From Cyanophora paradoxa CCMP329 (taxonomy: Eukaryota; Plantae; Glaucophyta), in NCBI GenBank assembly GCA_004431415.1, contig QPMI01000698.1:1-20776 (forward strand): 20,776 nucleotides of DNA. Reading direction: 5' to 3'. The position numbers and the translations under genes are program-made. Positions 1-20,776 of the stretch are shown here, piece by piece (positions within the stretch are counted from its first letter, which is position 1; the number at the start of each line of letters is the position of its first letter). The notes below the pieces were generated by a model. That model was not told where the DNA came from. It made no database searches and worked only from the letters and a program-made list of their open reading frames with translations.

Positions 1-938
1 CTGCGGCGCGAAGCGCGGATCGTCGAGGGGGCGGACTCCGTCTGGAAGATGGAGAAGAGGTAGCCGTCCGTGTTGTTGTCGGTGTTATTCTGGTTGCGCG
101 CGTGCGACCACTGCTTCAGCAGGTCGCGCCGCTGCGTCTCGGGCAGCGTCTTCGTGGGGTACTCCTGCAGCCGCCCGCCGTAATTTTCCTCCGGAATCAG
201 CTCGGCGAGGATGGTGGGCGGGTCTTTTCCCATGCCGATTCTCCTCGGTTCAGGTCGTCGATGAGCTCCGCGTTCTGCAGGATTCTCTCCGCGTCCTGCC
301 CCGCCTCTTGCTGCAGCTGCTCCACCAGCCTCCTTCCGGCCTCCGCGAATTTGCCGGCCAGAATTTCGCCCAGCCTCTCGTAGACGGTTGTCGTACCCGG
401 CTCCTTTTCCTTGAGTACCACGACCCAATCGTACTTTGCCCAGAGCACCTGCAGGTTCGATATGTGGTCGATCGTGACGAGCACGTGGGCGTGCAAGCAG
501 CCGTCGGTCGGCCCCACTTCCACGCCCCCCTGCACGCGAATTCCGATGATGGCGTTTGCAAAGGTATCGTCCTTGTACTTGCCGTCCTCTTCCTTTAAAT
601 TAAATCGAATGAACTTGTAGAATTCGGCGTCCGAGAGCACCTGGGCCAGGCTGCCGCGGAAGGCTCCACCTCGAATTCTCTCGCGGCGCCAGCCTCTTGT
701 GCGTGTTGAAGAGCACCAGTACCGCGACTGGCGCGCCTGTCGAATATCGTAGCGCGTGCTGCCGTCGGCGTTCTTTTTGTTGAGGATGAAAACCGAGCGA
801 CCGTCTCGTTGATTTCGGTGATGACCTTTTCGAGCGCCTCCAGCCCGTTGGCCCTCGCGGCCTGCAGCCCCGTTTTCGTCTTTTCTATGTTCTCCCTCAC
901 CTCGGTCGATTTCCTTAGGTCTCGTCGATCCTGCTCAT
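1..938 (-). CDS. HUH endonuclease (Rep-like) paralog 1; frameshifted, 3' end outside window
   Basis: Joined frames give MSRIDE..RENIEKTKTG..QSRYW/VLFNTHK (motif I-like)..AFRGSLAQVLSD..GVEVGPTDGCLHAHVLVTIDH (HUH at 485-493)..ILAELIPEENYGGRLQEYPTKT (YxxK at 150-161). The last frame stays open to position 1. Confidence 0.8.
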
Positions 939-963
939 GTCGGGCGCGGCGATATCCTGCTTC

Positions 964-1884
964 CTAATTTTCTCCTGGCCCGAACCCGGCGCGATGGTCG
1001 ACTGGCCGAAGCGGCGGCCATATCCTTGGCGGATTTCGAGGCCTTCGGCTTCGGGCCGCCCAGCACCGTCTGCGCCATCTGATTCTGCGCCTGTGCCGAC
1101 ACGGCCGTGGTGTCGCCCTCTTGCGCCGCTGCAGGCCCAAATTCGCGAGGAGGCCGCGCTCGTCCAGGAATCGTAAGCACTGCATGCAGAGCCACGAGTT
1201 CTTCGGGTACACCGGGGGCAGCTGCGCGGGCTTCTTGTCTTTGATCGGGGGTACTTGTTTTTTGGCCTTTGCGCCTTCGCCCACTCGTTGGCCCTGTCGA
1301 CCTTTTCGCGTAATCGGCGTACGCGGCCTCCTTCTTCGCGGTCGCTCCGCGACGGCCTCCGCGGTGCCCTTTTTGCGGGTATGCTCGGGATTTCGTACAT
1401 GAGGCGCAGGCAGCGGTAGCAGACGGGCGCGATTTTGGGCGCTCTGGAAGGCGCGCGGGATGGCCCGCAGGCGCTCCTCGGGCAGCGCGTCGTAGAACTG
1501 CTTGCTGTGGATGCTCCAGAACGTGGCATCTTTGTAGTAGGCGTCGAGCGCAGTGGTTTCCGGTACCTGCACGCGCGTGATCGGATCCTCGAGAATTTTA
1601 ACTACATCCGGGATGCCCTTCTGCATTTCGATGATCTGCCCGTTTTCGCCCTCGACCAGCACGGCCCGCTTTGGAATTTCGACTATGGGCATATCGAGCT
1701 CGTTGTATTTCTTTTCCTTCATCTTCTTCCCCCGCTTCCCCTTTGGCTTCGGCTCATCCTCGGCCTCTTCCTCTTCTACCTCTTCCTCTGATTCCGACTC
1801 TGGCTTCTCCTCCTCTTCCTCGTAAGCCGACCCCTCGGACTCGCTCTCCGGCTTCTTCTTGCGGCCTCGGCGCCTCGGAGGCAT
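964..1884 (-). CDS. Hypothetical viral protein with acidic/basic N-terminus and two CxxC motifs; frameshifted, 3' end approximate
   Basis: ATG 1884 (MPPRRRGRKKKPESESE..) lies 15 nt after TAAATTTTTTC. CYRC and CMQC occur in adjacent frames. Confidence 0.6.
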   Translation of the reverse strand: MPPRRRGRKKKPESESEGSAYEEEEEKPESESEEEVEEEEAEDEPKPKGKRGKKMKEKKYNELDMPIVEIPKRAVLVEGENGQIIEMQKGIPDVVKILEDPITRVQVPETTALDAYYKDATFWSIHSKQFYDALPEERLRAIPRAFQSAQNRARLLPLPAPHVRNPEHTRKKGTAEAVAERPRRRRPRTPITRKGRQGQRVGEGAKAKKQVPPIKDKKPAQLPPVYPKNSWLCMQCLRFLDERGLLANLGLQRRKRATPRPCRHRRRIRWRRRCWAARSRRPRNPPRIWPPLRPVDHRAGFGPGEN

Positions 1885-1907
1885 ATTTATTGGACACGAG
1901 AAAAAAT

Positions 1908-2744
1908 TTACACGAGCTTTACAGCGCCCGTCTCGAGGGCCTCTACCGTCTTCGTAATGTACAGCTGCAGCAGATCCTTGAGGTTGCTCTGAGGCAGCAA
2001 TTTCACGTCTACGTGCATCTGCCTGGCGGTTTCTCGCTTCCTGTAGCCCGTCTCCTTGCCCGTCCACTGCATGCCGAGGGCGTCCTTTCTCCGTATCGGC
2101 CGCACCGCCGTCTTCTGGTACTCCTCCCCGAACCAGTCGTCCTTGTAGAAATTCGGCAGGCCGCCCTGTCCCTCCGTTTGCATGAACTTGATGAGGAAAT
2201 CCGACGCCCGCTTGCCGTCGAATTGCACGCGCGAGTAGTGCACCAGCGTGAGCAGGATGTGCGCGTGGAGCCGCCCCGACCGCGGCCCGTACTCGATGCC
2301 GATGTTCGCGTTGCCCTCTCCACGTGCGTGTCGTACTGGTCGGACTTGAAATCGAAGCCCTTGGGGTTCGCCTTGTCGGGTACACCCCCATCTTTATGCA
2401 CCGCGCCAGCTGCCTGTCGTCGTAGAAGAGGGCCTCCAGCCCCCTGTAAAAGGCGTCCTGCACCTTGGCGCCCTCTCCCTGCTCCGCGGCTTGTAGTTGG
2501 TCTGGATGGTGATCATGAAATTCGACTCGCGCTGGGCCGATCCTCTCCGTTCAGTCTCCTCACGGCGCCGCGTCCAGCACCTTCTGGAACCACGTCTTGT
2601 CGGGCGCCAGCACCTTGTCGTTGATGTTGCCCACCACGATGTGAGTCTCTACCCGGGAGCGGCGGAGGCGTCCATGCGGAGGTGCGGGTTCGGGGCTCGG
2701 GCTTGCCTGTTTGCTGCTACGCCCCTCGCGATGAGGTTGAGCAT
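1908..2744 (-). CDS. HUH endonuclease (Rep-like) paralog 2; frameshifted
   Basis: Joined frames give MLNLIARG..ESNFMITIQTNYKP..QDAFYRGLEALFYDD..NIGIEYGPRSGRLHAHILLTLVH (HUH at 2259-2267)..VDVKLLPQSNLKDLLQLYITKT (YxxK at 1950-1961). Motifs are colinear with paralog 1. Confidence 0.82.
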
Positions 2745-2760
2745 GTCAGACCAAGGCCTA

Positions 2761-2770
2761 GAAAATTTTC
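2761..2770. promoter_or_regulatory. Palindromic GAAAATTTTC, a bidirectional copy of the recurrent viral upstream motif
   Basis: Perfect palindrome between divergent HUH2 and VLTF3, 16 nt upstream of the HUH2 ATG. Confidence 0.55.
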
Positions 2771-2818
2771 CGAGGCTAGGGTGAGCTTCCACGTGGGGCC
2801 CCGGGGTACGTTCACACC

Positions 2819-2846
2819 TCACCTGAGCCTCACATGAATCACCTGA
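2819..2846 (+). promoter_or_regulatory. TCACCTGA motif cluster (3 copies, ~10-bp period)
   Basis: TCACCTGA 2819, TCACATGA 2830, TCACCTGA 2839. The same motif clusters at 14409-14457 and 14819-14849. Confidence 0.5.
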
Positions 2847-2964
2847 GCAACGCCTTCTGTCACATCTGCGGCCTCACCTGCGGCTGGGACCCACTCGATT
2901 GCGCGAAGCCCGTTTGCCACTTCTGCAAGGGAATAGCGCAGCTGCAGTACGAGGACTCGGAGGA

Positions 2965-3773
2965 ATGGCGGACTCTGGCGAAATCGATCTCCTGCTCCGA
3001 AACTTCGAGCAGATCCAGCGCTACGGCGCCATCCTTCACGACGAGGGGGACCCAGACTTCGACACTCCGGCACCGTACCCCGCCGCCGCCGCCGCCATCA
3101 CCAGTTCCTACCTCGGGGCCGGAGAGCGCCCCCGCAAGCGCAACCGCCGCACCCAAGGCCCCCAAGGCGAAGCCGCTGTCCCCTGCGGAAATTGCGGCTC
3201 TACCGCCCTCGTTGGTGTTCACCTGGATGGGGATCTGGTTTGCCAAGGTTGCGGTCTGGTCCTGGATCTTTATTATCCGGATCATCAACCCCTGGCTGTC
3301 AGCGAAATCCACAGCAACTACCTGCGGAAGTACCACGTATCTGAGCGACTTAAGCAGCACTGCCTGGAGGATTCTCCTGTACCCGAGGACGTGCTGGCAG
3401 CTATTGCGAGGCGCATGGCAATATCCGCCAAGTTCTCCGGGCTCTGAAGCAGCAGAAGTACATCGAGCGCTGGGCGCAGATCAAGTGGCGCATCACGGGC
3501 GAGCGCCCGCCTCCGATGAGCGCGGAGGATATGGACCGGGTGCAGGAGATGTTCGCCCTGGTGGAGGTCCCCTTCAGCATGTTCAAGTCGCAGGGCAGGA
3601 AGAACATGCTCAACTACAACTACGTTTTCAGACAGATTTTCGTGCTGCTAGATTTGCCCCAGCACCTCCCCTACTTTCCCTTGCTCAAGAGCAGGCAGAA
3701 ACTCTCGGAGTTAGATTCGATTTGGAACAGGATCTGCGAGTACAACGACTGGCATTTCTTTCCTACTCTTTAG
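2965..3773 (+). CDS. VLTF3: Viral late transcription factor 3 (poxvirus A2-like) with N-terminal TFIIB-type Zn ribbon; one frameshift near 3410-3420
   Basis: CGNCG..DGDLVCQGCGLVLD; YLRKYHVSERLKQ; IRQVLRALKQQKYIE; RKNMLNYNYVFRQIFVLLDLPQHLPYFPLLKSRQKLSELDSIWNRICEYNDWHFFPTL matches the VLTF3 C-terminal signature. Confidence 0.93.
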
Positions 3774-4118
3774 CTACTCTTTAGTGATCGCGGCGGCCTT
3801 CCGCTCGAGCGCCTGCTTGATTCCGAAGCTAGCGCTGGTAGCCTTGATTAGCATGTTCGTCTGCCCGTGTGTAAATCCGAGGATGAACATAATTCCGCCG
3901 GTGGGGTCGTCGTCGAAGAACTTGAGGGTGAGCACGTATTTCGAGAGCAGGCCGAGGGAGAGGCCGTTGACGGCGACTTGCGCGGCGAGCTCGGCCGCGT
4001 GGCCCGCCCTATTTTCGCCTTCGTGCGAGGAGAAGGCGGCGTCGATGAGGGAGCCGGATGCCAGGCCGAGGGCGTACTGCACGATAGCCTGGGAGAGCCC
4101 TAGGAGCACCTTTGACAT
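3774..4118 (-). CDS. Small hydrophobic protein, probably membrane (114 aa)
   Basis: Intact ORF with three hydrophobic segments; upstream AAAAATTTCCGAGG motif 15 nt before the ATG; abuts the VLTF3 stop. Confidence 0.7.
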   Translation of the reverse strand: MSKVLLGLSQAIVQYALGLASGSLIDAAFSSHEGENRAGHAAELAAQVAVNGLSLGLLSKYVLTLKFFDDDPTGGIMFILGFTHGQTNMLIKATSASFGIKQALERKAAAITKE

Positions 4119-4153
4119 TTTCCTGGGGCCTCGGAAATTTTTAAGGGGCGCGC

Positions 4154-4498
4154 CTAGGCGTCGGAGTCCTCGTCCTCAGTCTCTTCCTCTTCCGAGCTCG
4201 ATTCCGAGGTTGCAAAGTCGTCCGGGTCGCGCACGTAAATAACCCTGTCTCCCTCTTCGTCTGTCATCTCCTCCGAGCTGGAATCCTCGCTGCCCAGCGA
4301 CTCGGCCGCGGCCTCGTCCGCCGCCTCCGAGGTCAGGCGCTCCCAGTTAATTCCCAGCGCGTCGCAGACCCTCTCCAGGGCGCTGCTGACCTCGCCGTCG
4401 TTGAAGGGCGAGGAGGGGTCGAGGCTGGCCTCCAGGAGGCAGTCGTAGACGACGGACTCTACGCGGAAGACGGAGGCGATATGGGCGCTGGGCGACAT
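4154..4498 (-). CDS. Hypothetical acidic protein (114 aa)
   Basis: Intact ORF with D/E/S-rich tail; upstream ATTTTTTCTGAGG motif 19 nt before the ATG. Confidence 0.65.
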   Translation of the reverse strand: MSPSAHIASVFRVESVVYDCLLEASLDPSSPFNDGEVSSALERVCDALGINWERLTSEAADEAAAESLGSEDSSSEEMTDEEGDRVIYVRDPDDFATSESSSEEEETEDEDSDA

Positions 4499-4524
4499 GC
4501 TTACGCACGTGGCCTCAGAAAAAA

Positions 4525-5593
4525 TCAGGCGAGGCCGCGGTGCTTCCTGAAATTATCTATCATGCCGAGGAGCGTCTTGTCCACCGTGCCGTCGTCCGGA
4601 CCCACGAGATTTTCCCCGTTGACGGTTTCGCCCTCCCAGTACTCCTTGGATCCGATTCGGAACGGGGGCGGCTCCTCGGCCTTGTAGACGTAAAGGACGT
4701 CCAGAGGGTTCGTAGAGTTGTTGGAAGAATCGATGATAAGGCAGTGGTTATCCTGCGTGTACTTGTCGAGCAGGTAGTAGAAGGCGCGCTGGGATATGAT
4801 GTCGCCCCACTCCTTTGCGAGGGCCTCGCGCTGCATCGCCTGCGAGCACTTGAAAATGACAGCCAGATCAGTATTGGAGCGCAGGACGGGATTGATGCCC
4901 TTGGCATACTGCGTCGTGATAAGGGTCATGATTTTGTAGTGGCGCCCCGCCACGAACAGCTCGTTGAGCGCCTCGTCGTACCGCAGCCGCGCGTCGGAAA
5001 TCACGTCGTCGAGCAGCACGAAAAATCGCGGGTCGACGGGATCTTCCTTTCCCGCGAGCACGTCTTCCGACTTGTTGTGCTGCATGATCGCCTGCTGCCT
5101 TCTGAATAAATGGAAGAGCACGCCCGGGTTGTACTTGGGCCAGATGAAGCGCTGGGGGATGTACTGCTTCCAGTACCCGTTCAGGCGATCGGTCTGGCTG
5201 ATTACGATACCCCCCGGGAAGGTGCCCGAGAGGTTGAACATGAGATCGCGAAGGAAGAAGGACTTGCCCGTGCGCCGTTTGCCGACGCAGACGACCGTGG
5301 CGTCCGGCTTGACGGTGTTCACGTCGAACCACTTAAGTTCGGGCAGGCAGGCCATGCGCTCGATGCCGCCCGTCTTCGAGTTGTCGAGGAAGGCGTTGAC
5401 CTGCTCGGGCGTGAGCTGCATGCCGTCCTCTGTCATGCCCATGGCGCAGCTGGCGCCGGCGGCGGGGGCGGTGCCCGAGCCCGAGCCCGAGGCCTGGCCG
5501 GCGGGGCGGGGCCGCGGGCGCTGCGCCTGCGGGCTGGGCGGCCTGGGGCTTGGCCGCCTTCGGCTTCTTCGGCTTCTTGGGGTCCTTGGCCAT
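4525..5593 (-). CDS. A32: A32-like FtsK/HerA genome-packaging ATPase; frameshift in the low-complexity N-terminus
   Basis: Walker A VGKRRTGKS, Walker B FFVLLDDV, and GRHYKIMTLITTQY..PVLRSNTD typical of A32. Likely start MAKDPKKPKK at 5593. Confidence 0.95.
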
Positions 5594-5630
5594 TTTACCC
5601 CCTTCATTCAGATTTTCTTGTGACCTCGGA

Positions 5631-6106
5631 ATGAAGATTCTCGGCGTGGATGTGGGGTCATTAATTTCGCCTGGTGCCTCATCGAATTCGATCCGCAGAC
5701 AAAGGAATCCCAGATTCTCGACTGGCAAAAGATCGCCCTCTTCCCGTCTGCGCGCTGCTGTGGCCGCCTTGTGGCGCGCCTGGTTGAGGTTACTCGCGGC
5801 CATAGCGCCTTCGGCCTTCCCGACCAGATCGCGATCGAGGGCCAGAGGACGGGAATTAATCGCTGCATCGAGTGCACGCTCCACGCCCTCCTGTACGGGC
5901 GTGCGCGGATCGTGAGCCCGCGCGCCATCAAGCACTTCTTCAAGATCTCGAACCCGAGCTACAAGGAGCGCAAGCGCGGCGCCGTGGACAAGTGCCGCGA
6001 CCTTGTACCCGCCGAGCTTGCCGATATCGCGGATCGAAACGGCAAGCTTGACGACCTCTGCGACGCCTACTTAATCGCCCTCTACGCCGCCCTCAATCCG
6101 TTGTGA
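5631..6106 (+). CDS. RuvC-like Holliday junction resolvase (poxvirus A22-type); one frameshift in a G run near 5654-5657
   Basis: MKILGVDVG/VINFAWC..IAIEGQ..VSPRAIKHFF..RKRGAV..KLDDLCDAYL; RuvC-type acidic catalytic residues present. Confidence 0.88.
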
Positions 6107-6306: not shown

Positions 6307-6699
6307 ATGGAGCACGCCCACTACTGCTTCAAGTGCCGCTCCAACACCAAGCTCGCCAACGTCGAGGTGCGTACCAGCAAGAACAACCGCCAGGTGGCCG
6401 TCGGCTCCTGCACGCAATGCAGCGGCCGCGTCTCGCGCTTCATGCGCCGGGTCCTCGAGGAGGGGGCCCGGGAGACCAGCCCCCCGCCGCAGCGCCCGCA
6501 GGTGGCCCACGCCACTGGCCCGGCCGCCGGCTCGAGCCAGGCACCGGCAGCCCCTACGGTCCCGAAGCCCCCCGCGGCGCCCCGGGCCAAGAAGACGGCG
6601 GCGCCGGCGGACGACTCGGCGCCCGCCGAGAGCCAAGTCCCGAAGCGCCATCGCGCGCCGAAGAAGTCGGCGAGCGAGCCTGCGATTCTTCAGCAGTGA
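6307..6699 (+). CDS. DUF5679-like Zn-ribbon protein with Pro/Ala/Lys-rich tail
   Basis: YCFKCR..TSKNNR....GSCTQCSGRVSRF fits the DUF5679 pattern as recalled. Confidence 0.75.
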   Translation: MEHAHYCFKCRSNTKLANVEVRTSKNNRQVAVGSCTQCSGRVSRFMRRVLEEGARETSPPPQRPQVAHATGPAAGSSQAPAAPTVPKPPAAPRAKKTAAPADDSAPAESQVPKRHRAPKKSASEPAILQQ

Positions 6700-7199: not shown

Positions 7200-7478
7200 A
7201 TGCCAGAGGCGCAGAAGAAGCCCGCGAAAAAGGCGCCCACGAACGGGCAGGAGAAGCCGACGAAGGCCGAGGTGAAGGAGGCGAAGGAGAAGCTGAAGGG
7301 CCCGCCCGAATTTCCTAAGGGGCCGAAGCCGCTGTACGAGGACGTCTCGCCCGGCGAAATATTCGTGGCGATGCGCCCGACGAAGCAGGGGAAGAAGGGC
7401 GGCGACAAGAAGGACGGGAAGGACGACAAGGCCAAGACCGATAAAATTTCAAAGCCCACCCCTAAGAAGAGCAAATGA
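7200..7478 (+). CDS. Lys-rich basic small protein, possible DNA-binding core protein (92 aa)
   Basis: Intact ORF, very K-rich; AATTTCTC motif 21 nt upstream. Confidence 0.65.
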   Translation: MPEAQKKPAKKAPTNGQEKPTKAEVKEAKEKLKGPPEFPKGPKPLYEDVSPGEIFVAMRPTKQGKKGGDKKDGKDDKAKTDKISKPTPKKSK

Positions 7479-9505
7479 GGGGGCTCGCCTCGCGTTTCGC
7501 GCCGCGCAACGTGCTCGCGATTCCGGGGGGCGGGGACTCGCACATCACGCCCTTCGAAAGCGATAAGTACGCCCACTTTCAGCAGATGGCGAAAACCGCA
7601 CTATTCAGGGGCCGCGAGGCCCGGGATCGTCCAGAGGGCCGAGACGAGATCGAAAACCTCGCGAAAATCGAGGCGCAGGCCATCGCCAACGCCTACTACA
7701 TTAACAAGTTCCAGCAGATGGAATCCTCGCTCGACCAAGAGTACGAGGAGGGTTTCCGCTCGTGGCTCATGGGCCAGTCGGCCTTCCATGGCCCGCAAAG
7801 GGCGGAAGGAGCAAGCGCCTGCAACGTTGACGGCGCGAACCTGACGATGCTACCAGGCGTGCGCGATTTCTGCAAGTCGAAGGAGGATCAGATCACTGAG
7901 TTCTTAAAGCGCAAGAAGCGGCTGGAGACCCTGGGTCCGATGAACCTCGAAGACGCGTACTACTATTACAAGTACATCATCAACGGCGAAGAGTTCAAGC
8001 CGACGAGCATCTACGCGCGCGAGCCGGAGGATCCCAGACGCAAGGATTACTCCGATCGGAACACACAGCAGCCGTTCACGCAGGCCGAGCCCCCCGGAGA
8101 GAACGACGAGGGGCCGGGCCCAGACGAGAGCCGCCAGCCGGACAAGCGTGCCAGCGCGCGCAGGATCGAGGCGAACCTTGCCAAGTTGGTCAAGATTATC
8201 CGCGAGCAGAAGGAGCAGGCCGCACGCATTCACACCGACGACAACGAAGCCGTGCGGGAGGATGCCGCCGAGGCGCTCGGAAACCTTCCCAAGAAGGCGG
8301 CGAAGGAGGCCCTGATCCAATCGGCCCTGCCGGGTAAGAAAAACCGCGGGGGTGGGGGGGGCGACGAGGGCGGCGAGGGGGGCGACGGGGGCGGTGCGCC
8401 GCCCCCTGGGGACGGGGCTGAGGACGCGGAGGGTGACGTCGAGATGGGCGAGCCCCCCACGGGATCCGGCGTAGAGGAAACCCCCAACCGCCCGCTGCGG
8501 CCCCGTAATCTAGAGGATCAGCTGAGAGGCGAGCCCGCCGCTGGCCCGAGCGGTGTGGCCGCCGAGCCCGAGGCCCCACCCCCCAGCGCCCCGGAGGCCA
8601 TCCAAGCGGCCGTGGGGGCTGCCGTTCAGACCGCGGTAGAGGCCGCCGTGCAGGCCGTGACCGGGGAGGAGACCACGGCCGAGGGAGCTCGGCGCATGCG
8701 CAGGGCCGTCCGCCCCGAAGACACGCGCAACCTCCTTAAAACGAGCGGCAAGCGCGAACCTGCTGAATTCCGAGACGAGGAACTTACAGAGCTTAAGAGG
8801 TCCAGGGCGGAATGGCTGAATGCGCTGGTGAATGGAAAACCCCCTCCCCTTGAAGGCCTTACCCTCACCGATTCCACCGGATACGAGTACTTAGACGTCG
8901 ACGGACTATCGCGGAACTTTGCCGGGTTCTTGATGGCACGTGGGCTTTACCCCACCAGACTTAGCGCAGCAGATCACCGCGCCGCCGTCCCGCAGCTGGC
9001 GAAAGTGTACCTTCAGGAAGTCAGTCGCCTTTTTAGCGGAAATCCCGAGATTACGTACAGCATCGGGGAGCAGCTCGTCGACATCCGAGATGAGCTGAAC
9101 GCAACCGCACAGTGGTTGTTCCGCAGCTACCGGAATCAGGAGAAAGAGAGGAAGATCTACGGCGGGTGGGTTGAGCCGTTATACCCGAGCGGCGAGGCAT
9201 CTGATCCCACAAAACGGTGGTCAGGGATCCCTATCCGGCCAGATGATTTCACAAGGGCCGAACCCGAGCCAACCCCTCGGTGGCTAACCGAGTTCCGGAA
9301 GCAGCAGTCTCTTCGTGAGGCCCGCGAAGCCCGGAATCGACGGTTGCGCCCCGAGGATGAACCTGCAGTGGAAGAGTTACGAGGCTTCGGTGCAGATTTC
9401 GGACCCCTCCTGCCAGCTCGGATGATGGATATCCCACCAATTCAATTCACGGATATGCCGCGGACGTGGTACAGGCCTTCGCAGGGGCCATCGGGCGCCG
9501 CCTGA
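7475..9505 (+). CDS. Large hypothetical viral protein (676 aa) with globular N-domain and disordered middle
   Basis: Uninterrupted 2-kb ORF immediately upstream of MCP; AAAATTTC motif 24 nt upstream. Confidence 0.8.
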   Translation: MRGLASRFAPRNVLAIPGGGDSHITPFESDKYAHFQQMAKTALFRGREARDRPEGRDEIENLAKIEAQAIANAYYINKFQQMESSLDQEYEEGFRSWLMGQSAFHGPQRAEGASACNVDGANLTMLPGVRDFCKSKEDQITEFLKRKKRLETLGPMNLEDAYYYYKYIINGEEFKPTSIYAREPEDPRRKDYSDRNTQQPFTQAEPPGENDEGPGPDESRQPDKRASARRIEANLAKLVKIIREQKEQAARIHTDDNEAVREDAAEALGNLPKKAAKEALIQSALPGKKNRGGGGGDEGGEGGDGGGAPPPGDGAEDAEGDVEMGEPPTGSGVEETPNRPLRPRNLEDQLRGEPAAGPSGVAAEPEAPPPSAPEAIQAAVGAAVQTAVEAAVQAVTGEETTAEGARRMRRAVRPEDTRNLLKTSGKREPAEFRDEELTELKRSRAEWLNALVNGKPPPLEGLTLTDSTGYEYLDVDGLSRNFAGFLMARGLYPTRLSAADHRAAVPQLAKVYLQEVSRLFSGNPEITYSIGEQLVDIRDELNATAQWLFRSYRNQEKERKIYGGWVEPLYPSGEASDPTKRWSGIPIRPDDFTRAEPEPTPRWLTEFRKQQSLREAREARNRRLRPEDEPAVEELRGFGADFGPLLPARMMDIPPIQFTDMPRTWYRPSQGPSGAA

Positions 9506-9532: not shown

Positions 9533-11162
9533 ATGGCTTCCGCGCTCATCTCCACCCCCACGACCGCCCTCGCGCAGTCGCTCCTGAGCTCGAACTCGTC
9601 GGTGCATGTGCCCGACTCCTTCGACACGGCGACGCCGTTCGTGGACGAGGTGCTGGAGGTTAGCCCCGTGCAGGCCTCGCCCAATTTCGACACCGTCGTC
9701 GATTTCGTCGTGCCCCACTCCGGCCCGTTCATCTCCGACGTCTGGCTCCGGGCGACCCTGCCCGACCTTGCGGACGACACCAAATTTTACCTTCCCAAGG
9801 CCGGATTTATTTTGCTCAAGAAGGTCAAGGTGTTCGTGGGGACGCAGCTCGTGCACGAGTACGAGGGCGCCTACGATGCGATCTACGACGAGCTCGAGCA
9901 GGATCGCTCCCTCCCCACAACGCCAACCTCATCAACGAGTGCTGGGCGCCCCAGCTCCTGCAGCGCCGCTCCAACCACGGGGCCATGAGCCTCACCATCC
10001 CAAGGTGTTCGTGGGGACGCAGCTCGTGCACGAGTACGAGGGCGCCTACGATGCGATCTACGACGAGCTCGAGCAGGATCGCTCCCTCCCCACAACGCCA
10101 ACCTCATCAACGAGTGCTGGGCGCCCCAGCTCCTGCAGCGCCGCTCCAACCACGGGGCCATGAGCCTCACCATCCCACTGCGCATTCTCAACGGCTTCGG
10201 TCGCAAGAACGCCGTGCCCCTCTACAAGCTCCGTAGCACCGGCAACGACCTGAAGATTCAGATCACATTTGCGCGCCTCAACGAGCTCAACGTCACCTAC
10301 GCCTCGACGGCAAACCACACGGCCGGCACCAGCGCCGGCAACCTCGAAAGCGTCAAGCTCATGGTCCGCTACACGCACGTTTCCGCCTACGAGCTGAGCC
10401 TCCAGCCCAACAGCGTTACCTACCCCGGCAAGTTCATGCAGTCCTACGAGGTCGGCTTCAAGTCGGGCGCCGCGATTCGGCTGCCCTTCACCGGAGTTTG
10501 CTACGAGCTGGTGGTCGTTGTGCGCGATGCCACGCCGACGGCGGCGGCCAAGGAGTTCTGGAAGTTCCGGCCCCTCACGAAGATCGGCCTCAAGTGCGAT
10601 AATATTAAGGTGGTGGACGACTCCGTCCTGGACGCGAATTTCATCCGCACTGTCATTTGTTCGCGCGAGCACCGCAACGTGCCGACGCGCAAGTTCCTCG
10701 AGCTGCTGCAGGGCTTCGCGGCGTCCACCGACGCGGAGGCGCAAAACCTGATTACGGCGCCCGCCGCCGGGGATGTCGCCTACGACGCAAGGGAGCCGCG
10801 GCGCTCAAGGCCTCCAGACGGCGCTCCTTGCCAACCCCTGGTCGGGCAACGACACACCCGTCACGACCGTGGAGACGCAGGACAGGACCAACAGCGACAT
10901 TGTTCCCGCCTCGACCGCGACCGGCCAGTTCGGCGTCGAGTACATCTACTCGCTGCCCTTCGGCACCGAGGTCGGCGACGACACCAAGATGTTCGGCGGC
11001 CTGGACTTTGGCGCCTTCAAGACCGTCGAGCTCACCCTCACGACGGCCAAGACCGGCGCGGGCAACCCTCCCGCTGCCTTCGAGGGCCACGCCACCATCT
11101 ACTGCCGCTACTACAACGAGATCAGCTACGTGGGCGGCGGCGCCTACCGCCGTTTCCAGTAG
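9533..11162 (+). CDS. MCP: NCLDV-type double-jelly-roll major capsid protein; frameshifts near 9915 and 10790 plus an internal 175-bp duplication
   Basis: DFVVPHSGPFISDVWLRATLPDL; LLKKVKVFVGTQLVHEYEG; LTIPLRI..NAVPLYKL..DLKIQITF; YIYSLPF..GGLDFGAF; IYCRYYNEISYVGGGA. These motifs are colinear with NCLDV MCP. Confidence 0.9.
9826..10175 (+). repeat. Tandem duplication of 175 bp inside MCP
   Basis: 9826-10000 equals 10001-10175 (CAAGGTGTTCGTGGG...CTCACCATCC), with no differences seen by eye. Confidence 0.95.
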
Positions 11163-11234: not shown

Positions 11235-12350
11235 ATGACGAAGGCCACTCTATGATGGACATTGGGAGGGCTCTAAGAAGCAGCGCCAGTCGCTGAAGAA
11301 CGACCTGAAGGGCGAGGTGACGGGAATTATCGAGAAGTATGCACCCGGCACGATTCTGCCCGAGGTGCCAGTTCCAGCGGGCAAAGGCGATGTGTACACG
11401 CCGAGGACGTGGCCCGCGGCCTGGGCCAGAGCGGTACGGATACCAAGGCCCTGCCGGCCATGAAGTACACCCCGCAGATGGAGAAGCTGATGCGGATGGG
11501 CATCCGACAGCAGCTGCAGAATGCCTACCCCAACCGTCAGATCAACGAAGAGGACGTCGAGAATGCGTTCACGCTGCGGAAGGAAATCATGATTCGCGAT
11601 TTCGACCAGTGGGCGATGACGGCCTTCGACCTGAAGCAGCCAGGCGTGGCTAAAATGCTCGAGGAATATTACCCCGAGCTGCTCGAGCGAATTACGAATA
11701 TGATCGAGCAGGATATCGAAATTCAGCGTTTCGATAAGTACCAGAAGGTTTTCTTCCCGATGAACTACGACGATCTCGTCATGAAGTGGGCACGCGAGCG
11801 CGGCTGGATCAAGACAATGGAGGAAATCGAGAAGGAGAACCTGCTCGGCCCTGCAGGCCGGTACGCCAAGGAGACGGCCGGTGGGAGGGCCTCCGCGCCG
11901 GCTACACGCCCGACCTCTCGCCCATGTTCAACGCACAGACTGCGAACATTAGCAGCTCCGTCAACAGGCCCTACGGCCGCAACGACGTCGACTTCTCCAA
12001 GGGCAATCCGTTCGTGCCATTCTCATGGATCAGCACGGCACGCGAGGCCCCGCGGTTGCGACTGCGACCCCGTACGCGGACCAGAACATGCTACCTGCCA
12101 CGGTGAATCCCCGCCCGGGGCTAGATAGTTTAATCCCCGCCATTACGGCCAGTCAGCTTCAATCGACTCGTGGAAGGGGACGGTAGCCGGGATGACAGAG
12201 GCTGCTCAGAATCCAATTCAAGCTGCGTTCCAGGCCCTCGTCCTGGGCACCGAGACAGCACAGCAAAACATCCTCCGCGAAACCAATACCCGGAAGGCGG
12301 AGCATATACTGCCGCCGCAGCCGCCCTGCAGCCTGGTCGCTAATTTCTAA
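11235..12350 (+). CDS. Hypothetical viral protein downstream of MCP; several frameshifts, ends approximate
   Basis: ATG 11235 follows TAAATTTTCC; core ORF 11409-~11880 (IRDFDQWAMTAF..FFPMNYDDL); coding-like frames continue to TAA at 12350. Confidence 0.6.
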
Positions 12351-12365
12351 CGCACACGCAAGCAC

Positions 12366-12690
12366 ATGGCAGCGACGGAGGCGACGCTGGGCGAGCAGAT
12401 CGAGGCGCGCTGGGGCCGCTTCCTCGACCTGCTGGAGCCGAGGCCAAGGAGCCGGGGTGCGGGCGCAGATCCAGTCGCTGCGCGGTATAGGCGCCACGGC
12501 GGTCATCGTTCTATTTAGGAGGCACATCAACGCGGAGGCCGAATTCATTAAGGCACGGACGATCAAGTTTTCGCGAAGCTGCCGCAGGAGTACGCTCGGC
12601 CGTGCGCTCGCTCTTCTACGGGAGCGGCCCGAGCTGCGCGAGAAGCTGTGGCTTTACATCGAGCTCTTCGTCGAGCTGACCTCGGAGTAA
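12366..12690 (+). CDS. Hypothetical helical protein; frameshifted
   Basis: MAATEATLGEQIEARWGRFLDLL...LREKLWLYIELFVELTSE*; TAATTTCTAA motif 18 nt upstream. Confidence 0.65.
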
Positions 12691-12725
12691 AAATCCGAGG
12701 AAATTTCTAAGGGGCAAGCGTAACG

Positions 12726-13522
12726 ATGGACCCCTCTGCGATGCTGGGCTTCGACGCGCTGGCCGTGGACGGGCCGAACCCGTGGGGATCCCGCAGCCTC
12801 GGAAGAAGGCCGCCCCGCGAAGGAAGGCAAGGAAAAGGGCGAGAAGGCGCCGAAGGCCGACAAGACGGCGCTGCCGGGCGACGGGCCCACGGTGCCGCCG
12901 ACGCGCCGAGCAAGGGGCGAGCTTCAGCGTGCAGGAGCACATCGAAATGACGAAAAAGAAGGAACAGAGCGTGAAGAAGGCGCTGGGGATCGACCTGCAG
13001 GAGAAGCCGCGCGACGAGGCGCAGACGGACGTGGACGAGAAGAAGCAGGTTCTGCGTCAGATCGCGCAGTACAGGCGCTCGTTCGGGGCGAGCTAACGTC
13101 CACGAAAAAGCTGAGCCTCGCGACGCCGCTGGACGAGCTGAAGGAAGAGTACGAGGAAATTCAGCGCGAGCTGAGCACGCGGGGTTCGCTGGAGGCGGCG
13201 CGCCTCTTTCTGATCGCGGGCATGCACTCGCTGGAGCACCTTAACAAAGCGTACGATCCGATCGGCCTGAAGTTAGACGGGCTCGGCAGGCGACGCTCTC
13301 TTCCATGGACCAGGTGCAGCCGATCTTAGAGGAGCTGGTGATTAAGTACTCGCGCTACGTGACCCTGGGCCCGAGGCGCGCCTGGGGATGGCCCTTGTGC
13401 AGACGGTGCTGGCGGTGCACGCGGCCAACGCGAACCCGGAGATGATGAAGGAGGTGACGGAGGCGGCGGCCTCGACGGCGGCGGAGCCCAAAGCGGTGGG
13501 CGGCAAGTTCAACGGCCTTTGA
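12726..13522 (+). CDS. DUF5767-like conserved NCLDV protein; several frameshifts
   Basis: LDELKEEYEEI..LEHLNKAYDPIGLKLDGL..PILEELVIKY..LGPEARLGMALVQTVLAVHAAN resembles the recalled family pattern (EFLN..YDP...KLDGW..FEEL..KY..PE.RL...H..N). AAATTTCTAAGG motif 18 nt upstream. Confidence 0.7.
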
Positions 13523-13563: not shown

Positions 13564-14354
13564 TTATTCGTCTAAACTACTGCATGGGGTGGTGTACATA
13601 GACTCGGGGTTTAGGTAGGGCTCGAAATCGGCCTCGTTGTCGTAGGGCTTGAAGGCCAGCTCGGGCGTGCGGCCGGCGAAGCGAAAGGCGCCGACCTTGC
13701 ACTGCTGCACGGCGAGGAAGGACCACTTGAGGCCGAACTTGCCCTCGGGATGGCGTAGGCGGTGTCGATTTTAACGAGGGCCGCCACCAGGTCGCCGTGC
13801 CGATGGTGGCGCGCTCGGTGATGAGGTAGTTGGACATGTCGACGACGGGCACGGTCTTGCGCTTGCCGGCCATCGTCTGCGTGCGGATGCGCATGTTGAG
13901 GTACTTGTAGAAGGCCTGGCCCGACTCCTTGTCGACCTTGATGCGGACGCTGGGCGTCTGCAGCACCGAGATCTGATCCTTGGAGAGGCTGCGGCCGGGC
14001 GAGACTTGAGCTTGGCCTGGTTCTGCTGCACGAACTCGCAGAATTTCGCGTCCAGGGCCTCCAGCAGCTTGAGGAATTCGTCCGCGGCTGGTTCGTCTGG
14101 CCGTCGACGGCGCTGAGATCGGTGAGGTCCAGCGTGTAAAATCCGCCGTTTTCTTCCATGACGAAGGCCTTCTTCTCGTCGCTCCACGCCTTGCCTTGCT
14201 CGGTGTTGATGCAGGGGTTGATCGTGACCATGGGCGGCGCGTACATCATGAGGCCCTGCAGGCCGTCGTACTTGGCCTTGATGCGGCCGTTGGCATCGAT
14301 TTCGAAGGCGAGCTTGGCGGGGTCGATCTCGGTGGCGTTGCGGACGGTGGCCAT
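13564..14354 (-). CDS. OB-fold ssDNA-binding protein (T7 gp2.5/DUF2738-like NCLDV SSB); frameshifted
   Basis: MATVRNATEIDPAKLAF..FYTLDL..EFLKLLEALDAKFCEFV..HGDLVAALVKIDTAYAIP/EGKFGLKWSFLAVQ with an acidic/aromatic tail. Confidence 0.7.
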
Positions 14355-14408
14355 GTTGTCTGAGCTTAGTGTGCGATCAGCTAGCGCTAGAAAATATTTA
14401 AGGCCGCC

Positions 14409-14457
14409 CCACCTGACTTCAGGCTGACCTCGGTGAGCGCTCAGGTGATTCAGGTAA
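14409..14457. promoter_or_regulatory. TCAGGTGA/CACCTGA motif cluster upstream of SSB
   Basis: CCACCTGA 14409, TCAGGTGA 14441, TCAGGTAA 14450, plus degenerate copies. Confidence 0.5.
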
Positions 14458-14752: not shown

Positions 14753-14818
14753 ATTCTTGATTTCTCTTGGCTGTGAAGTGTGAGCGAGGGCGCGGCGCGG
14801 CTGCGGTTTTGAGGCCGT

Positions 14819-14849
14819 TCAGGTGAGGGTCAGGTGAGCGCTCACCTGA
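14819..14849. promoter_or_regulatory. TCAGGTGA cluster including the perfect 20-bp palindrome TCAGGTGAGCGCTCACCTGA
   Basis: Copies at 14819, 14830 and (inverted) 14842; abuts repeat copy A. Confidence 0.55.
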
Positions 14850-14850
14850 A

Positions 14851-16225
14851 GAGGGGGGAGAAGTGACGCGGACGCGAATACGTCATAGTCGAATACGTCA
14901 TAGTCCAAAACCTGGACTCGGGACTTGCCCAGGCCCCGCCGGTAAAAAAATAAGCTCGGACTGGCGCCATTTCTGAACCCCGGCTAGCTGCTTAATCCAG
15001 TACCATGGAGCCCGCCATCTCCCAGCTAGTCTCCAGGGCGCCAAGCTCGACAAGCCCTCAGTATCTACCTTCAGCTGATCGAGCTGGCCTGGCCGAGCCA
15101 ATGATAGCTCAGGCCTGCAAATCGCTCCACGTGGCGTTCGATGCGCCGTTCTCAGGTGACCCGACTCAGATGACATCCTGACCAAGGAGGAGATAAAAGC
15201 CGACTTCGAGGCGCTTTTCTCATTTATGAGCAAGAAGTATGCCGAAATCGAAGCAGCTAAAGCCGCAGCCGCAGCCGAAGACGAAGGCGCAGAAGGCACC
15301 GAAGCCTCAGCCGAAGGCCCTGCCGGCGACGAAGGCACCGAAGTTCAAGGCGCTGGCCCTCTGCAGAAGGCCAAGGCCAAGCCGACCTGCTTCCGCGTAG
15401 GCCCAAGGACATAGCCAAGGAGGCCAGCAGCCACAGGCCCGACTGGCCGCGCCGGCGCCCTACCGCTACCTCAAGCTGACAAGCGCAACGATACCGGCTT
15501 CACCAGGAGGAGGTGGCCTGAGCCCCTTCGGTGGCTGAAGCCAAGGGAGATCAAGTCTGGAGGCGTATCGAGCTAGCGCTAGCGCTAGGAGGAGGCGGTG
15601 CAGACTTAGAGGAGCAGGCGCTGCTAGATACCATCAACTTGGGCAGGGTAGAGCTAGCTAGCTAGCTGGTATCGATATCTAGCTAGCCTAGCGCTAGCCC
15701 AGTGCTTAATTAATTAACTGAAAGGTTGCGGAGGTTGCGGACGCGTCACAAATACGTCATAGTCGAATACGTCATAGTCCAAAACCTGGACTCGGGACTC
15801 GGCCCGGGCCCGCCGGTAAAAAAAGAGACTTGAACAAAAACACCGTACCCCGGTATTTAACTTGAAATCATCATGACATCATGTTCAAGTTGCTATGACA
15901 TTAACTACATTCAAAAGCAATGAATGCATAGATTATTATTATACTAAGTATTATTATTATTATAATAGGGGTACAGTATTATTATTTGAAACTTGGCGAG
16001 AGTCTGGGCCAGTCCCAAGTCCAGGTTTTGACTATGACGTATTCGACTATGACGTATCGGACGCGTCACTTCTCCCCTACTCAGCTGAACCAGCGGGGGT
16101 AGAGATGATGCGCCAATCCGAGTCTATTTTTTTACCGCAGGGCCCGGCCGAGTCCCGAGTCCAGGTTTTGGACTATGACGTATTCGACTATGACGTATTC
16201 GCGTCCGCGTCACTTCTCCCCCCTC
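14851..16225. repeat. Four-copy nested inverted repeat: A 14851-14990 (+), B 15738-15851 (+), C 15968-16077 (-), D 16082-16225 (-)
   Basis: 14851-14925 is the exact reverse complement of 16151-16225 (75 bp). Every copy has two GAATACGTCATAGTC units followed by a CAAAACCTGGACT(C/T)GGGACT-like block. Confidence 0.92.
15005..15414 (+). pseudogene. Degenerate or frameshifted ORF between repeat copies A and B
   Basis: ATG 15005; coding-like stretch DDILTKEEIKADFEALFSFMSKKYAEIEAAKAAAAAEDEG. Confidence 0.35.
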
Positions 16226-16572: not shown

Positions 16573-16938
16573 ATGGAGGCCCTGCTAGATCTCATGGCCT
16601 TTGCGCTGCCCATCTTCTTCCTAGTGGCCTCAGCCGCATGGAGCGCGAGGCGCGCCAGCCCGAGCGCGTCGAGCGCGGCCTCACCCCCGAAGAGCAGCGC
16701 TACCCCGGCACTTTGGCTCACCCACGCATTGCGTCGAAATTTGAGTCATTTTCGACGCAGTGCTCCAATTTCACGCAATGCTGAAAATGCGTCGGGTTTC
16801 AAGCAGCGCTTAAACCCCACGCAGTGCGACGCAGCTGCCCGAAACTTCGAAGCACCGCGACTGCGCCAAATTCCCACTGCGTCTGGCTGCGTCGAGCGAT
16901 GCAGCCTGGCAGCGCTAGCAGGCGTATCCTATAGCTAG
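16573..16938 (+). CDS. Small protein with N-terminal hydrophobic helix; 3' part runs into a repeat cluster
   Basis: MEALLDLMAFALPIFFLVASAAW; TTTTCTAAG motif 12 nt upstream. Confidence 0.35.
   Translation: MEALLDLMAFALPIFFLVASAAWSARRASPSASSAASPPKSSATPALWLTHALRRNLSHFRRSAPISRNAENASGFKQRLNPTQCDAAARNFEAPRLRQIPTASGCVERCSLAALAGVSYS
16724..16894. repeat. Cluster of ACGCAnTGC/CTGCGTCG motifs in both orientations, with a hairpin
   Basis: About 9 copies; stem 16726-16739 pairs with 16750-16763 (one G-T). Confidence 0.65.
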
Positions 16939-19820: not shown

Positions 19821-20130
19821 CGGCTCACCTGGCGGGCGGAGGCGCGGCGGGCGGCGGCACGGCTCGCCGGGAGGGCGGCGGCGCGGCGGGCGGCGCGCAG
19901 CTCGCCGGGCGGGGCGAGGGTGCGGCGGGCGCGGCGAAGCTCGGCGGGCGGGGCGCGGGAGCGGCGGGGGCGGCGCGGCTCGCCAGGCGGGGCGGAGGCG
20001 CGGCGGGCGGCGCCGCGGCTCGCGGGCGGGGCGGAGGCGCAGCGTGCTGCGGCCGGCTCGCCGCACGGGGTGGAGGCGCGGCTGGCGGCGGCGAGGCTCG
20101 CCAGGGGGGGCGGAGGCGCAGCAGGCGGAC
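19821..20130 (+). repeat. GC-rich minisatellite, ~39-bp unit, about 8 degenerate copies
   Basis: Recurring CGGCTCGCCGGGCGGGGCGGAGGCGCGGCGGGCGGCG. Confidence 0.75.
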
Positions 20131-20243
20131 AGGACGGCAGGCGCGGCGGGCGCGGCGTGGCTCGGGGGCGCCGGTGGCGCGACGCGGCTTTCGATTCGTG
20201 ATCACTGATCATGAGCGTGATGATCTCTTGTCATTCAATTTAA

Positions 20244-20776
20244 ACAGATCCGAGGCTGCGCTGCCTGCAACTTGGCACAAATGAAGTGTTGGCAATTGGG
20301 GCCCACTATTGCTTGGCGAGGCCCAGCACCTTTTCAGCGCTTGCCACATTAAAATCAAATCTAGCGCCTTTGATATAGTCCAGGTACGCTTCTCCAGTCA
20401 GTGAAAAGGCCGGGATCTTTTCCTGGCTTCATGATCAATTCTCATGATCATCATGAACACTGCATGCATGGGTGCTCAGATCCTCACTGCGAGCCAAATT
20501 GAAACTCGGGGCCCATATTGCATACGCCCGCGAGCATGCTGTTGGGGGTTCTCGAGGGCGCTGGATTTGATTATGAAGTCGGTTGAAGACAGATCCGAGG
20601 CTGCGCTGCCCTGCAACTTGGCACAAATGAAGTGTTGGCAATTGGGGCCCACTATTGCTTGGCGAGGCACCAGCACCTTTTCAGCGCTTGCCACTATTAA
20701 AATCAAATCTAGCGCCTTTGATATAGTCCAGGTACGCTTCTCCAGTCAGTGAAAAGGCCGGGATCTTTTCCTGGCT
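20244..20776 (+). repeat. Direct repeat of at least 185 bp with ~345-bp period, continuing off the right edge
   Basis: 20244-20428 matches 20589-20776 apart from about three single-base indels. Confidence 0.9.

What the first reader, a model, noticed from the sequence alone, without database searches (positions are those of the whole stretch)
1..2744. Two paralogous HUH/Y1 endonucleases hidden by frameshifts, both with intact catalytic motifs
Four colinear blocks match: SRYW/VLFNTHK vs SNFMITIQTNYK; AFRGSLAQVLSD vs AFYRGLEALFYD; EVGPTDGCLHAHVLVTIDH vs EYGPRSGRLHAHILLTLVH; LIPEENYGGRLQEYPTKT vs LLPQSNLKDLLQLYITKT. HUH plus YxxK is the rolling-circle nicking/joining chemistry. With no integrase or polymerase in view, they may serve both replication initiation and integration/excision (inference).
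Basis: partly seen in the sequence, partly recalled or inferred. Interest (0 to 1): 0.82.

Follow-up and report, generated by a model that had tools for sequence, protein, structure and literature searches.

The report
Algal endogenous mriyavirus's paired HUH nickases

Summary
Both HUH genes are real paralogues (HHalign 98.5%) with conserved HUH and YxxK motifs. The second is not a short gene: it is the C-terminal domain of a ~658-aa protein spanning 1884 to beyond position 1. All 19 breaks are missing bases, and short-read contigs carry exactly the missing number, so they are likely long-read errors. Near-identical proteins lie on at least 28 contigs of a proteome labelled Cyanophora paradoxa, many full-length. 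Neighbours (NCLDV-type capsid, A32 ATPase, VLTF3, RuvC, ssb-like) mark a mriyavirus. A short HUH directly followed by HUH_long is the published gamadvirus arrangement (PMC11253617), seen in 8 of 15 relatives. Mriyavirus-related insertions in a glaucophyte assembly are already noted in a preprint. New in detail: a divergent lineage (ATPase 43-52% to gamadviruses), a compact HUH_long keeping two CxxC pairs, two subtypes sharing one short HUH, and many copies with no integrase in view. Rolling-circle initiation is the likely role (inferred). HUH-driven integration is open, about 20%.

The parts
1908..2744 (-). Short HUH endonuclease gene (about 280 aa; mriyavirus 'HUH'), 6 breaks of one missing base near 2662, 2561, 2532, 2479, 2378, 2316
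   Evidence: P0013 (285 aa) aligns 2744-1911, 262 of 274 identical; breaks absent from short-read contigs; hit by gamadvirus HUH profile E 8e-13
2490..2525 (-). Short HUH motif I (RESNFMIT)
   Evidence: E79, S80, N81 invariant in 26 homologues
2238..2294 (-). Short HUH motif II (HAH)
   Evidence: H167 and H169 invariant in 26 homologues
1947..2000 (-). Short HUH motif III (YITK)
   Evidence: Y269 invariant, K272 in at least 90% of 26 homologues
1..1884 (-). HUH_long gene (about 658 aa in sister copies; runs off the left end): acidic/basic N-terminus, two CxxC pairs, C-terminal HUH domain; 13 breaks, all missing bases
   Evidence: one short-read contig covers 1-1767 with 15 extra letters
1177..1421 (-). 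Two CxxC pairs of HUH_long (CYRC 1421-1410, CMQC 1188-1177), a predicted zinc site
   Evidence: two CxxC pairs also in 8 of 8 gamadvirus HUH_long proteins
147..727 (-). HUH domain of HUH_long: motif I 727-696, motif II 520-464, motif III 200-147
   Evidence: H469, H471, Y580, K583 invariant in 12 long homologues
2899..3773 (+). VLTF3-like late transcription factor (in two frames)
   Evidence: Pfam Pox_VLTF3 E 1.4e-23; gamadvirus family f2
4525..5607 (-). A32-like packaging ATPase, open frame
   Evidence: Pfam Pox_A32 E 1e-4, just under the cut-off; 43-52% identity to 80 viral contigs
5624..6106 (+). RuvC/A22-like Holliday junction resolvase
   Evidence: Pfam Pox_A22 E 2e-5; family f11 E 3e-14
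7475..9505 (+). Conserved mriyavirus protein (family f5; Mriya_1 by gene order, inferred)
   Evidence: E 5e-11
9533..11162 (+). NCLDV-type major capsid protein, broken, with an exact 175-nt tandem duplication (9826-10175)
   Evidence: Pfam Capsid_N E 4e-4, below cut-off; gamadvirus MCP profile E 1e-6 and 5e-3 in two colinear pieces
11409..13489 (+). Three conserved mriyavirus genes (families f6, f10, f9; Mriya_51, PEV_20 and Mriya_48 by gene order, inferred)
   Evidence: E 3e-8, 2e-5 and 5e-6; DUF5767 E 0.002
13577..14355 (-). Family f3 gene (gamadvirus ssb / PEV_26 by gene order, inferred); ends approximate
   Evidence: E 3e-4 and 1e-3
14851..16225 (.). Nested inverted repeats with tandem 15-mers around a 71% AT stretch (15836-16003); candidate origin or shared promoter block, untested
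16700..16712 (.). Junction: other copies continue in a different sequence after 16704; this copy joins another repeat
   Evidence: the same loose end at 16704 in 3 of 3 runs laid

Best explanation
The two genes are the short HUH and HUH_long endonucleases of a gamadvirus-like mriyavirus present in many copies in what is likely a glaucophyte alga's genome, and they likely start rolling-circle copying of the viral DNA, while the frameshifts are likely long-read errors. Inferred mechanism, from established Y1 HUH chemistry: the two histidines bind a divalent metal, the tyrosine nicks one strand at an origin and stays attached to the 5' end, a host polymerase extends the 3' OH with the viral ssb-like protein, and a second nick-and-join closes the unit; the RuvC-like enzyme would resolve branched intermediates before A32 packaging. 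HUH_long adds a predicted zinc-binding and helical N-terminal part that may direct it to other DNA sites or partners. Shown here: identity, motifs, paralogy, gene order, multi-copy presence and the absence of the breaks in short reads. Inferred: catalytic activity, origin, division of labour.
For: Motifs invariant across 26 short and 12 long homologues. Same tandem order (short then long, same strand, 23 nt apart here) in 8 of 15 IMG/VR relatives. Of the other 7, 2 show an ORF starting at that place but cut by the contig end, 2 end just after the short gene, and 3 lack it. Nine further genes are shared with these relatives. The long domain carries the gamadvirus HUH_long motif-I signature (R385, Q389, R391, H399 invariant) and two CxxC pairs, and groups with gamadvirus HUH_long (support 84/86 and 89). 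The HUH core is 91% identical between the two long subtypes against 59% for the N-terminal part, consistent with selection on the nuclease. Full-length models exist in sister copies. The predicted fold is a ferredoxin-like core; IS200 TnpA and parvovirus NS1 nucleases are among the matches, and the only significant viral structure hit is an unnamed 793-aa second segment of a longer protein, E 3e-9.
Against: No activity was measured, here or in the paper read. The structural test is weak: mean pLDDT 51, no Foldseek PDB match at E <= 0.001, and the HUH-family matches (Z 5.1-6.0) are tied with unrelated ferredoxin-like proteins. The HUH_long model failed (pLDDT 33). No Pfam Rep family reaches significance for any of 16 short homologues (best E 0.067). 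Orthology to gamadvirus HUH_long rests on long branches, and an independent duplication is not rejected (p-AU 0.22). HUH_long is about 660 aa here against 1591-1857 aa in gamadviruses, and the N-terminal match is only E 0.06. The short-read contigs also differ from the window by 12 substitutions in 1767 nt, so they may represent sister copies rather than this copy. No helicase, VLTF2, PDDEXK or minor capsid gene was found in the window.
Confidence: 0.8

Rival explanations
1. One of the two HUH enzymes, or the pair, also inserts and excises the viral genome by nick-and-join strand transfer, as HUH transposases (IS91, IS200/IS605, Helitron) and AAV Rep do (recalled), which would explain many young copies without an integrase.
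For: At least 28 contigs carry short-HUH models, and the 11 full-length cluster members are 93-99.6% identical. No integrase, recombinase, transposase or polymerase family among 149 six-frame segments of at least 75 aa. Integration genes are reported absent in mriyaviruses (10.64898/2026.06.19.733378). The longest structural alignment among the top rows is to an IS200 TnpA (124 of 130 residues, Z 6.0).
Against: The element continues beyond the left end of the window and beyond 16704 in other copies, so an integrase is not excluded; related groups carry RVE or YR. Broken frames lower the Pfam sensitivity. The same pair occurs in environmental gamadvirus contigs, so it is not special to endogenous copies. 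The only junction in view cuts a viral ORF. No element ends or target-site pattern were seen.
Confidence: 0.2
2. The copies entered by host repair or recombination during nuclear replication and were then multiplied passively with host repeats; the HUH pair serves replication only.
For: The junction at 16704 lies inside an ORF and joins a sequence that is itself repeated. Mosaic pairing of short-HUH variants with two long subtypes suggests recombination among copies. 10.1101/2025.04.19.649669 proposes mainly accidental insertion for Nucleocytoviricota-related elements.
Against: Dozens of copies with intact motifs in two subtypes suggest repeated recent entry; only one junction was seen.
Confidence: 0.45
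3. This particular copy is a true pseudogene that lost single bases in the genome, while sister copies stayed intact.
For: Short-read contigs collapse many copies, differ by 0.7% substitutions, and none was shown to be this copy; the copy is interrupted at 16704.
Against: All 19 breaks are deletions, with no insertions and no stop codons. 21 of 22 listed missing bases sit beside the same base. Missing bases also occur in the non-viral flank.
Confidence: 0.1

Closest known systems
Gamadviridae (proposed family, class Mriyaviricetes): HUH + HUH_long of Pleurochrysis sp. endemic virus 2 and relatives (PMC11253617)
   Same: Short HUH directly followed by a long protein with a C-terminal HUH domain, both with intact motifs; NCLDV-type MCP, A32 ATPase, VLTF3, RuvC and, by gene-order inference, Mriya_1/48/51, PEV_20 and ssb; no polymerase or integrase seen.
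   Different: HUH_long about 660 aa, not 1591-1857 aa; ATPase 43-52% identical to the sampled relatives, whose own pairwise identity is 51-100% (median 69%); rearranged gene order; multi-copy and endogenous, likely in a glaucophyte rather than a haptophyte.
Mriyaviricetes-related endogenous regions in a Glaucocystophyceae assembly (10.1101/2025.04.19.649669, Fig. 5f)
   Same: Probably the same element family (inferred; figures and supplements not seen).
   Different: That text does not mention HUH or Cyanophora (0 occurrences each) and does not describe the pair, subtypes or copy number in the sections read.
Yaraviridae (yaravirus)
   Same: Mriyavirus core genes and one HUH endonuclease.
   Different: HUH_long, PEV_20 and ssb are scored absent in the Yaraviridae rows of Table S1 that were seen.
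Zoravirus (VC102), VC218 and VC134 NCLDV-like PLVs (10.64898/2026.06.19.733378)
   Same: Mriya48 and, in part, a HUH gene.
   Different: Most carry RVE or tyrosine recombinase; no HUH duplication is described in the passages read; none of these integrases is in the window.
Y1 HUH enzymes: IS200/IS605 TnpA, SIRV1 ORF119, parvovirus NS1, CRESS Rep
   Same: HUH plus single-tyrosine chemistry; ferredoxin-like core; tyrosine on a C-terminal helix after the last strand in the model, as recalled for TnpA.
   Different: No significant sequence or structure score; no fused helicase; resemblance only.

Membership tests
HUH superfamily (Y1) | Motif II H-hydrophobic-H | tested here: met
   Invariant in 26 short and 12 long homologues; present in 12 of 12 and 17 of 17 sister models
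HUH superfamily (Y1) | Motif III catalytic Tyr, Yx2-3K | tested here: met
   Y269 and Y580/K583 invariant; present in 11 of 12 short and 13 of 17 long sister models; the missing ones were not examined
HUH superfamily (Y1) | RRM/ferredoxin-like Rep fold | tested here: inconclusive
   Core 75-262 ferredoxin-like; TnpA Z 6.0 (rmsd 6.0, 124 aligned), NS1 Z 5.1-5.2, tied with unrelated folds; model pLDDT 51
HUH superfamily (Y1) | Metal-dependent ssDNA nicking with Tyr-DNA adduct | not testable with these tools
   Needs an enzyme assay
Mriyaviricetes | NCLDV-like MCP, A32 ATPase, VLTF3, RuvC and HUH together | tested here: met
   MCP scores are weak (E 4e-4 Pfam, 1e-6 gamadvirus profile)
Mriyaviricetes | Placement inside the mriyavirus clade in MCP/ATPase trees | not tested
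   No outgroup sequences were in hand; only identities to relatives
Mriyaviricetes | No DNA polymerase, RNA polymerase or integrase; genome of 35-45 kb; helicase present | tested here: inconclusive
   None of these genes in 16.7 kb of element, but the element is incomplete in the window
Gamadviridae | HUH followed by HUH_long | tested here: met
   orthology favoured, not proven
Gamadviridae | Family-specific genes (PEV_8/12/14/15/20/22/26/27/34/35, SF3_hel2, VLTF2) | tested here: inconclusive
   Two found (f10 and f3, names inferred from gene order, E 2e-5 and 3e-4); 8 other families tested gave no hit in the partial element
HUH transposon (IS91, IS200/IS605, Helitron type) | Defined ends (hairpins or ori/ter) and target-site preference | tested here: inconclusive
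   One junction only, inside an ORF; no inverted partner of the junction sequence in the window

The most novel reading that the evidence does not exclude
An integrase-less relative of giant viruses has colonised an algal nuclear genome dozens of times using its own HUH enzymes, one paralogue starting rolling-circle replication and the zinc-finger-bearing HUH_long doing strand transfer into and out of host DNA. This would be a new integration route for Nucleocytoviricota, with the inverted-repeat/AT-rich block at 14851-16225 as the origin.
Probability: 0.2. Interest if true: 0.75.

Novelty: new member of a known kind. Interest (0 to 1): 0.36.

Why it matters
The HUH pair itself is published, so a specialist would not be surprised. 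Its value is practical. Rolling-circle replication of mriyaviruses is a prediction (PMC11253617), and how they enter host genomes without an integrase is open. A family with many near-identical copies, intact enzymes, two subtypes and a candidate origin, in what is likely a cultured alga, allows both questions to be tested: by comparing junctions across copies and by nicking assays. The case also shows how long-read deletions turn such viral genes into false intron-containing 'host' gene models.

Tried and rejected
No whole genome was held for this window, so other copies' ends could not be read. Pattern scans for close relatives found none: window ATPase and short HUH in viral contigs, alignment A1 in viral and metagenome contigs, A5 in metagenome contigs. 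PDB sequence searches with two profiles gave nothing significant. ESM Atlas gave no usable hit for P0013 or for the HUH_long N-terminal part. The HUH_long structure prediction failed and was not searched. SIRV1 ORF119 was not among the 50 rows listed. A heterodimer test of the two HUH domains returned no verdict (score 0.00, alignments not used). A capsid fragment found no match in 3 of 3 relatives' records, which shows nothing without a positive control. No run on record as RNA holds the stretch. One run guessed to be RNA has contigs over the short HUH and the ssb-like gene and none over HUH_long; this is not proof of expression. Contig depths (viral genes about 1,600-5,300 against about 60 for short chance matches in run X3) suggest tens of copies but are not a copy number. 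Programmed frameshifting or introns were rejected: 19 scattered deletions are absent from short reads. The first tree held 5 of 8 gamadvirus long domains because a motif filter dropped 3; the second held all 8 but used 6 of the 14 short ones (8 chosen, 2 dropped by a filter). Inverted repeats of at least 20 nt within 3 kb occur in 8 of 61 related loci of 10 kb or more, none resembling the window's block in the 4 examined. Earlier scan findings: none returned. Paper searches for HUH-mediated mriyavirus integration or a Cyanophora mriyavirus found no paper stating either in the passages read.

Full report
Observation. A profile of 16 short-HUH homologues matches the second protein with probability 98.5%, E 3.5e-15, over 178 columns that include motifs I, II and III. 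The paralogy is real.

Anatomy. The first gene runs 2744-1908 and matches the full-length 285-aa protein P0013 at 262 of 274 aligned residues, with six breaks. The second HUH is the C-terminal domain of one long gene that starts at 1884, 23 nt after the first, and runs off the window's left end. P0019 (658 aa) aligns from 1884 to 3 at 611 of 619 residues, with 13 breaks and no stop codon. Its N-terminal part has an acidic/basic tract and two CxxC pairs.

The frameshifts. All 19 breaks are missing bases. Short-read contigs from four coded runs were laid on 1-3000. One contig has 1782 letters over 1-1767: +15, equal to the 14 bases of the 13 breaks plus one at position 23. Another has 827 letters over 1965-2785: +6, equal to the six breaks. 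Nine of the 19 breaks match rows in the part of the table shown; 18 rows were hidden. Of 22 listed missing bases, 21 extend a run of the same base, against 52% at random. This is the signature of unpolished long-read consensus (established knowledge). The caveat is that these contigs also differ by 12 substitutions and may represent sister copies, so a true pseudogene keeps about 10%.

Context and host. Neighbours are VLTF3, an A32 ATPase, an A22/RuvC resolvase and an NCLDV-type capsid protein. Short-HUH models lie on at least 28 differently named contigs of one EukProt proteome, whose accessions read Cyanophora paradoxa. The window likely comes from that species (inferred from 99-100% identity). 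On 14 of the 28 contigs the short and long models have consecutive gene numbers, and 3 more models fuse parts of the pair region. The long protein falls into two subtypes 66% identical, while 11 full-length short proteins are 93-99.6% identical. Between subtypes the HUH core is 91% identical and the N-terminal part 59%.

Relatives. A scan of IMG/VR with a profile of distant HUH hits gave 15 loci. In 8 of 15 the short HUH is followed at once by a 1591-1857-aa ORF ending in a HUH domain; 2 are cut there, 2 end just after, and 3 lack it. Four have contig lengths equal to gamadviruses in Table S1 of PMC11253617. Profiles built from the 95 loci (43 families) hit the window for ATPase, VLTF3, MCP, RuvC, both HUH genes and five other families, plus one hit on the strand opposite the ssb-like gene that I take as spurious. 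By gene order against Table 1 of that paper the five are Mriya_1, Mriya_51, PEV_20, Mriya_48 and ssb (inferred names). Eight families, including those taken as helicase, VLTF2, PDDEXK and minor capsid, gave no hit. The window's ATPase is 43-52% identical to 80 relatives, which are 51-100% identical among themselves (67 proteins, median 69%). So this is an outlying lineage. Catalytic residues are invariant in 26 short and 12 long homologues. The window's long domain shares the RQSR...H motif-I signature and two CxxC pairs with gamadvirus HUH_long (8 of 8 have two pairs) and groups with them at support 84/86 and 89, across long branches. An independent duplication is not rejected (p-AU 0.22).

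Structure. The short-HUH model has mean pLDDT 51, with a beta-sheet core and a C-terminal helix bearing the tyrosine. Foldseek found nothing at E <= 0.001 in PDB and one viral hit, an unnamed 793-aa second segment (E 3e-9), whose size would fit half of a gamadvirus HUH_long (inferred). The wide search gave ferredoxin-like folds, among them IS200 TnpA (Z 6.0, rmsd 6.0, 124 aligned) and parvovirus NS1 nucleases (Z 5.1-5.2), tied with unrelated proteins. The fold is compatible with HUH but is not proof by itself.

Mechanism. The most likely role is rolling-circle initiation using a host polymerase, as inferred for all mriyaviruses in PMC11253617; no activity is shown. For integration, no integrase or polymerase family appears in 149 six-frame segments, but the element is incomplete here. 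It is a fair candidate origin but could be a promoter block. It is not the element's end: viral-level depth continues to 16704, where other copies go on in a different sequence in 3 of 3 runs, while this copy joins another repeat inside an ORF. That favours neither a precise end nor a target motif. I put HUH-driven integration at 0.2 and passive or repair-mediated entry at 0.45; the rest is an integrase outside the window or unknown.

Literature seen. PMC11253617: parts 1-4 of 7 of the text (abstract to discussion), a term search of both supplements and part 5 of 9 of the spreadsheet; figure images were not seen. [quoted passage not shown] 10.1101/2025.04.19.649669: passages and sections 10-11; it reports Mriyaviricetes-related regions in a Glaucocystophyceae assembly and suggests mainly accidental insertion. 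Its figures were not available and its supplements are closed, and they may describe this element further. 10.64898/2026.06.19.733378: passages; integration genes absent in mriyaviruses, present in related groups. 10.1101/2022.07.28.501842: passages; NDDV scaffold in Phaeocystis. PMC12220804, PMC10120064 and PMC12480563: term searches only, with no mention of mriyavirus HUH. Properties of IS91, Helitron, AAV Rep and TnpA are recalled.

Verdict. A real feature, correctly spotted, but a new member of a known kind. What is new is detail: a divergent multi-copy lineage, a compact HUH_long with a shared predicted zinc site, two subtypes and a candidate origin. These make two open questions testable. 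Interest 0.36.

Noticed in passing
window 14851-16225: Nested inverted repeats (99 nt, 93%; 73 nt, 92%) with tandem 15-mers containing TGACGT, around a 71% AT stretch; ORFs start just outside and just inside. Candidate origin or promoter block.
   Followed up: partly
window 2818-2853, 14410-14447, 14803-14850: Clusters of CACCTGA/TCAGGTG sit upstream of the short HUH/VLTF3 divergent pair, the ssb-like gene and the 14752 ORF; possible shared viral promoter motif.
   Followed up: partly
window 1843-2830: Short-read depth is several-fold higher over the short HUH than over HUH_long, with loose ends at 1843 and 1392. This fits two element subtypes sharing one short HUH but differing in HUH_long, with mosaic pairing.
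   Followed up: partly
window 16705-19520: Right flank is itself repeated in the genome (contig depth 600-1500 in X3) and partly covered by spliced-looking contigs of the run guessed to be RNA; unidentified repeat.
   Followed up: no
window 9826-10175: Exact 175-nt tandem duplication inside the capsid gene; may be an assembly artefact.
   Followed up: no
window 6307-6699: Small zinc-ribbon protein, Pfam DUF5679 E 9e-10, not among the families shared with gamadvirus loci.
   Followed up: no
window 19795-20170 and 20264-20776: 39-nt GC-rich tandem array and a ~348-nt direct repeat at the window's right end.
   Followed up: no
L081:271-1244 and L080:434-1627: Two related viral contigs share the same 42-44-nt inverted repeat enclosing about 1 kb; possible invertible or mobile cassette.
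   Followed up: no
P0015, P0016, P0054: Environmental short-HUH proteins (71%, 58% and 43% identical to P0013) form a clade with the window's enzyme, suggesting unsampled free relatives.
   Followed up: partly
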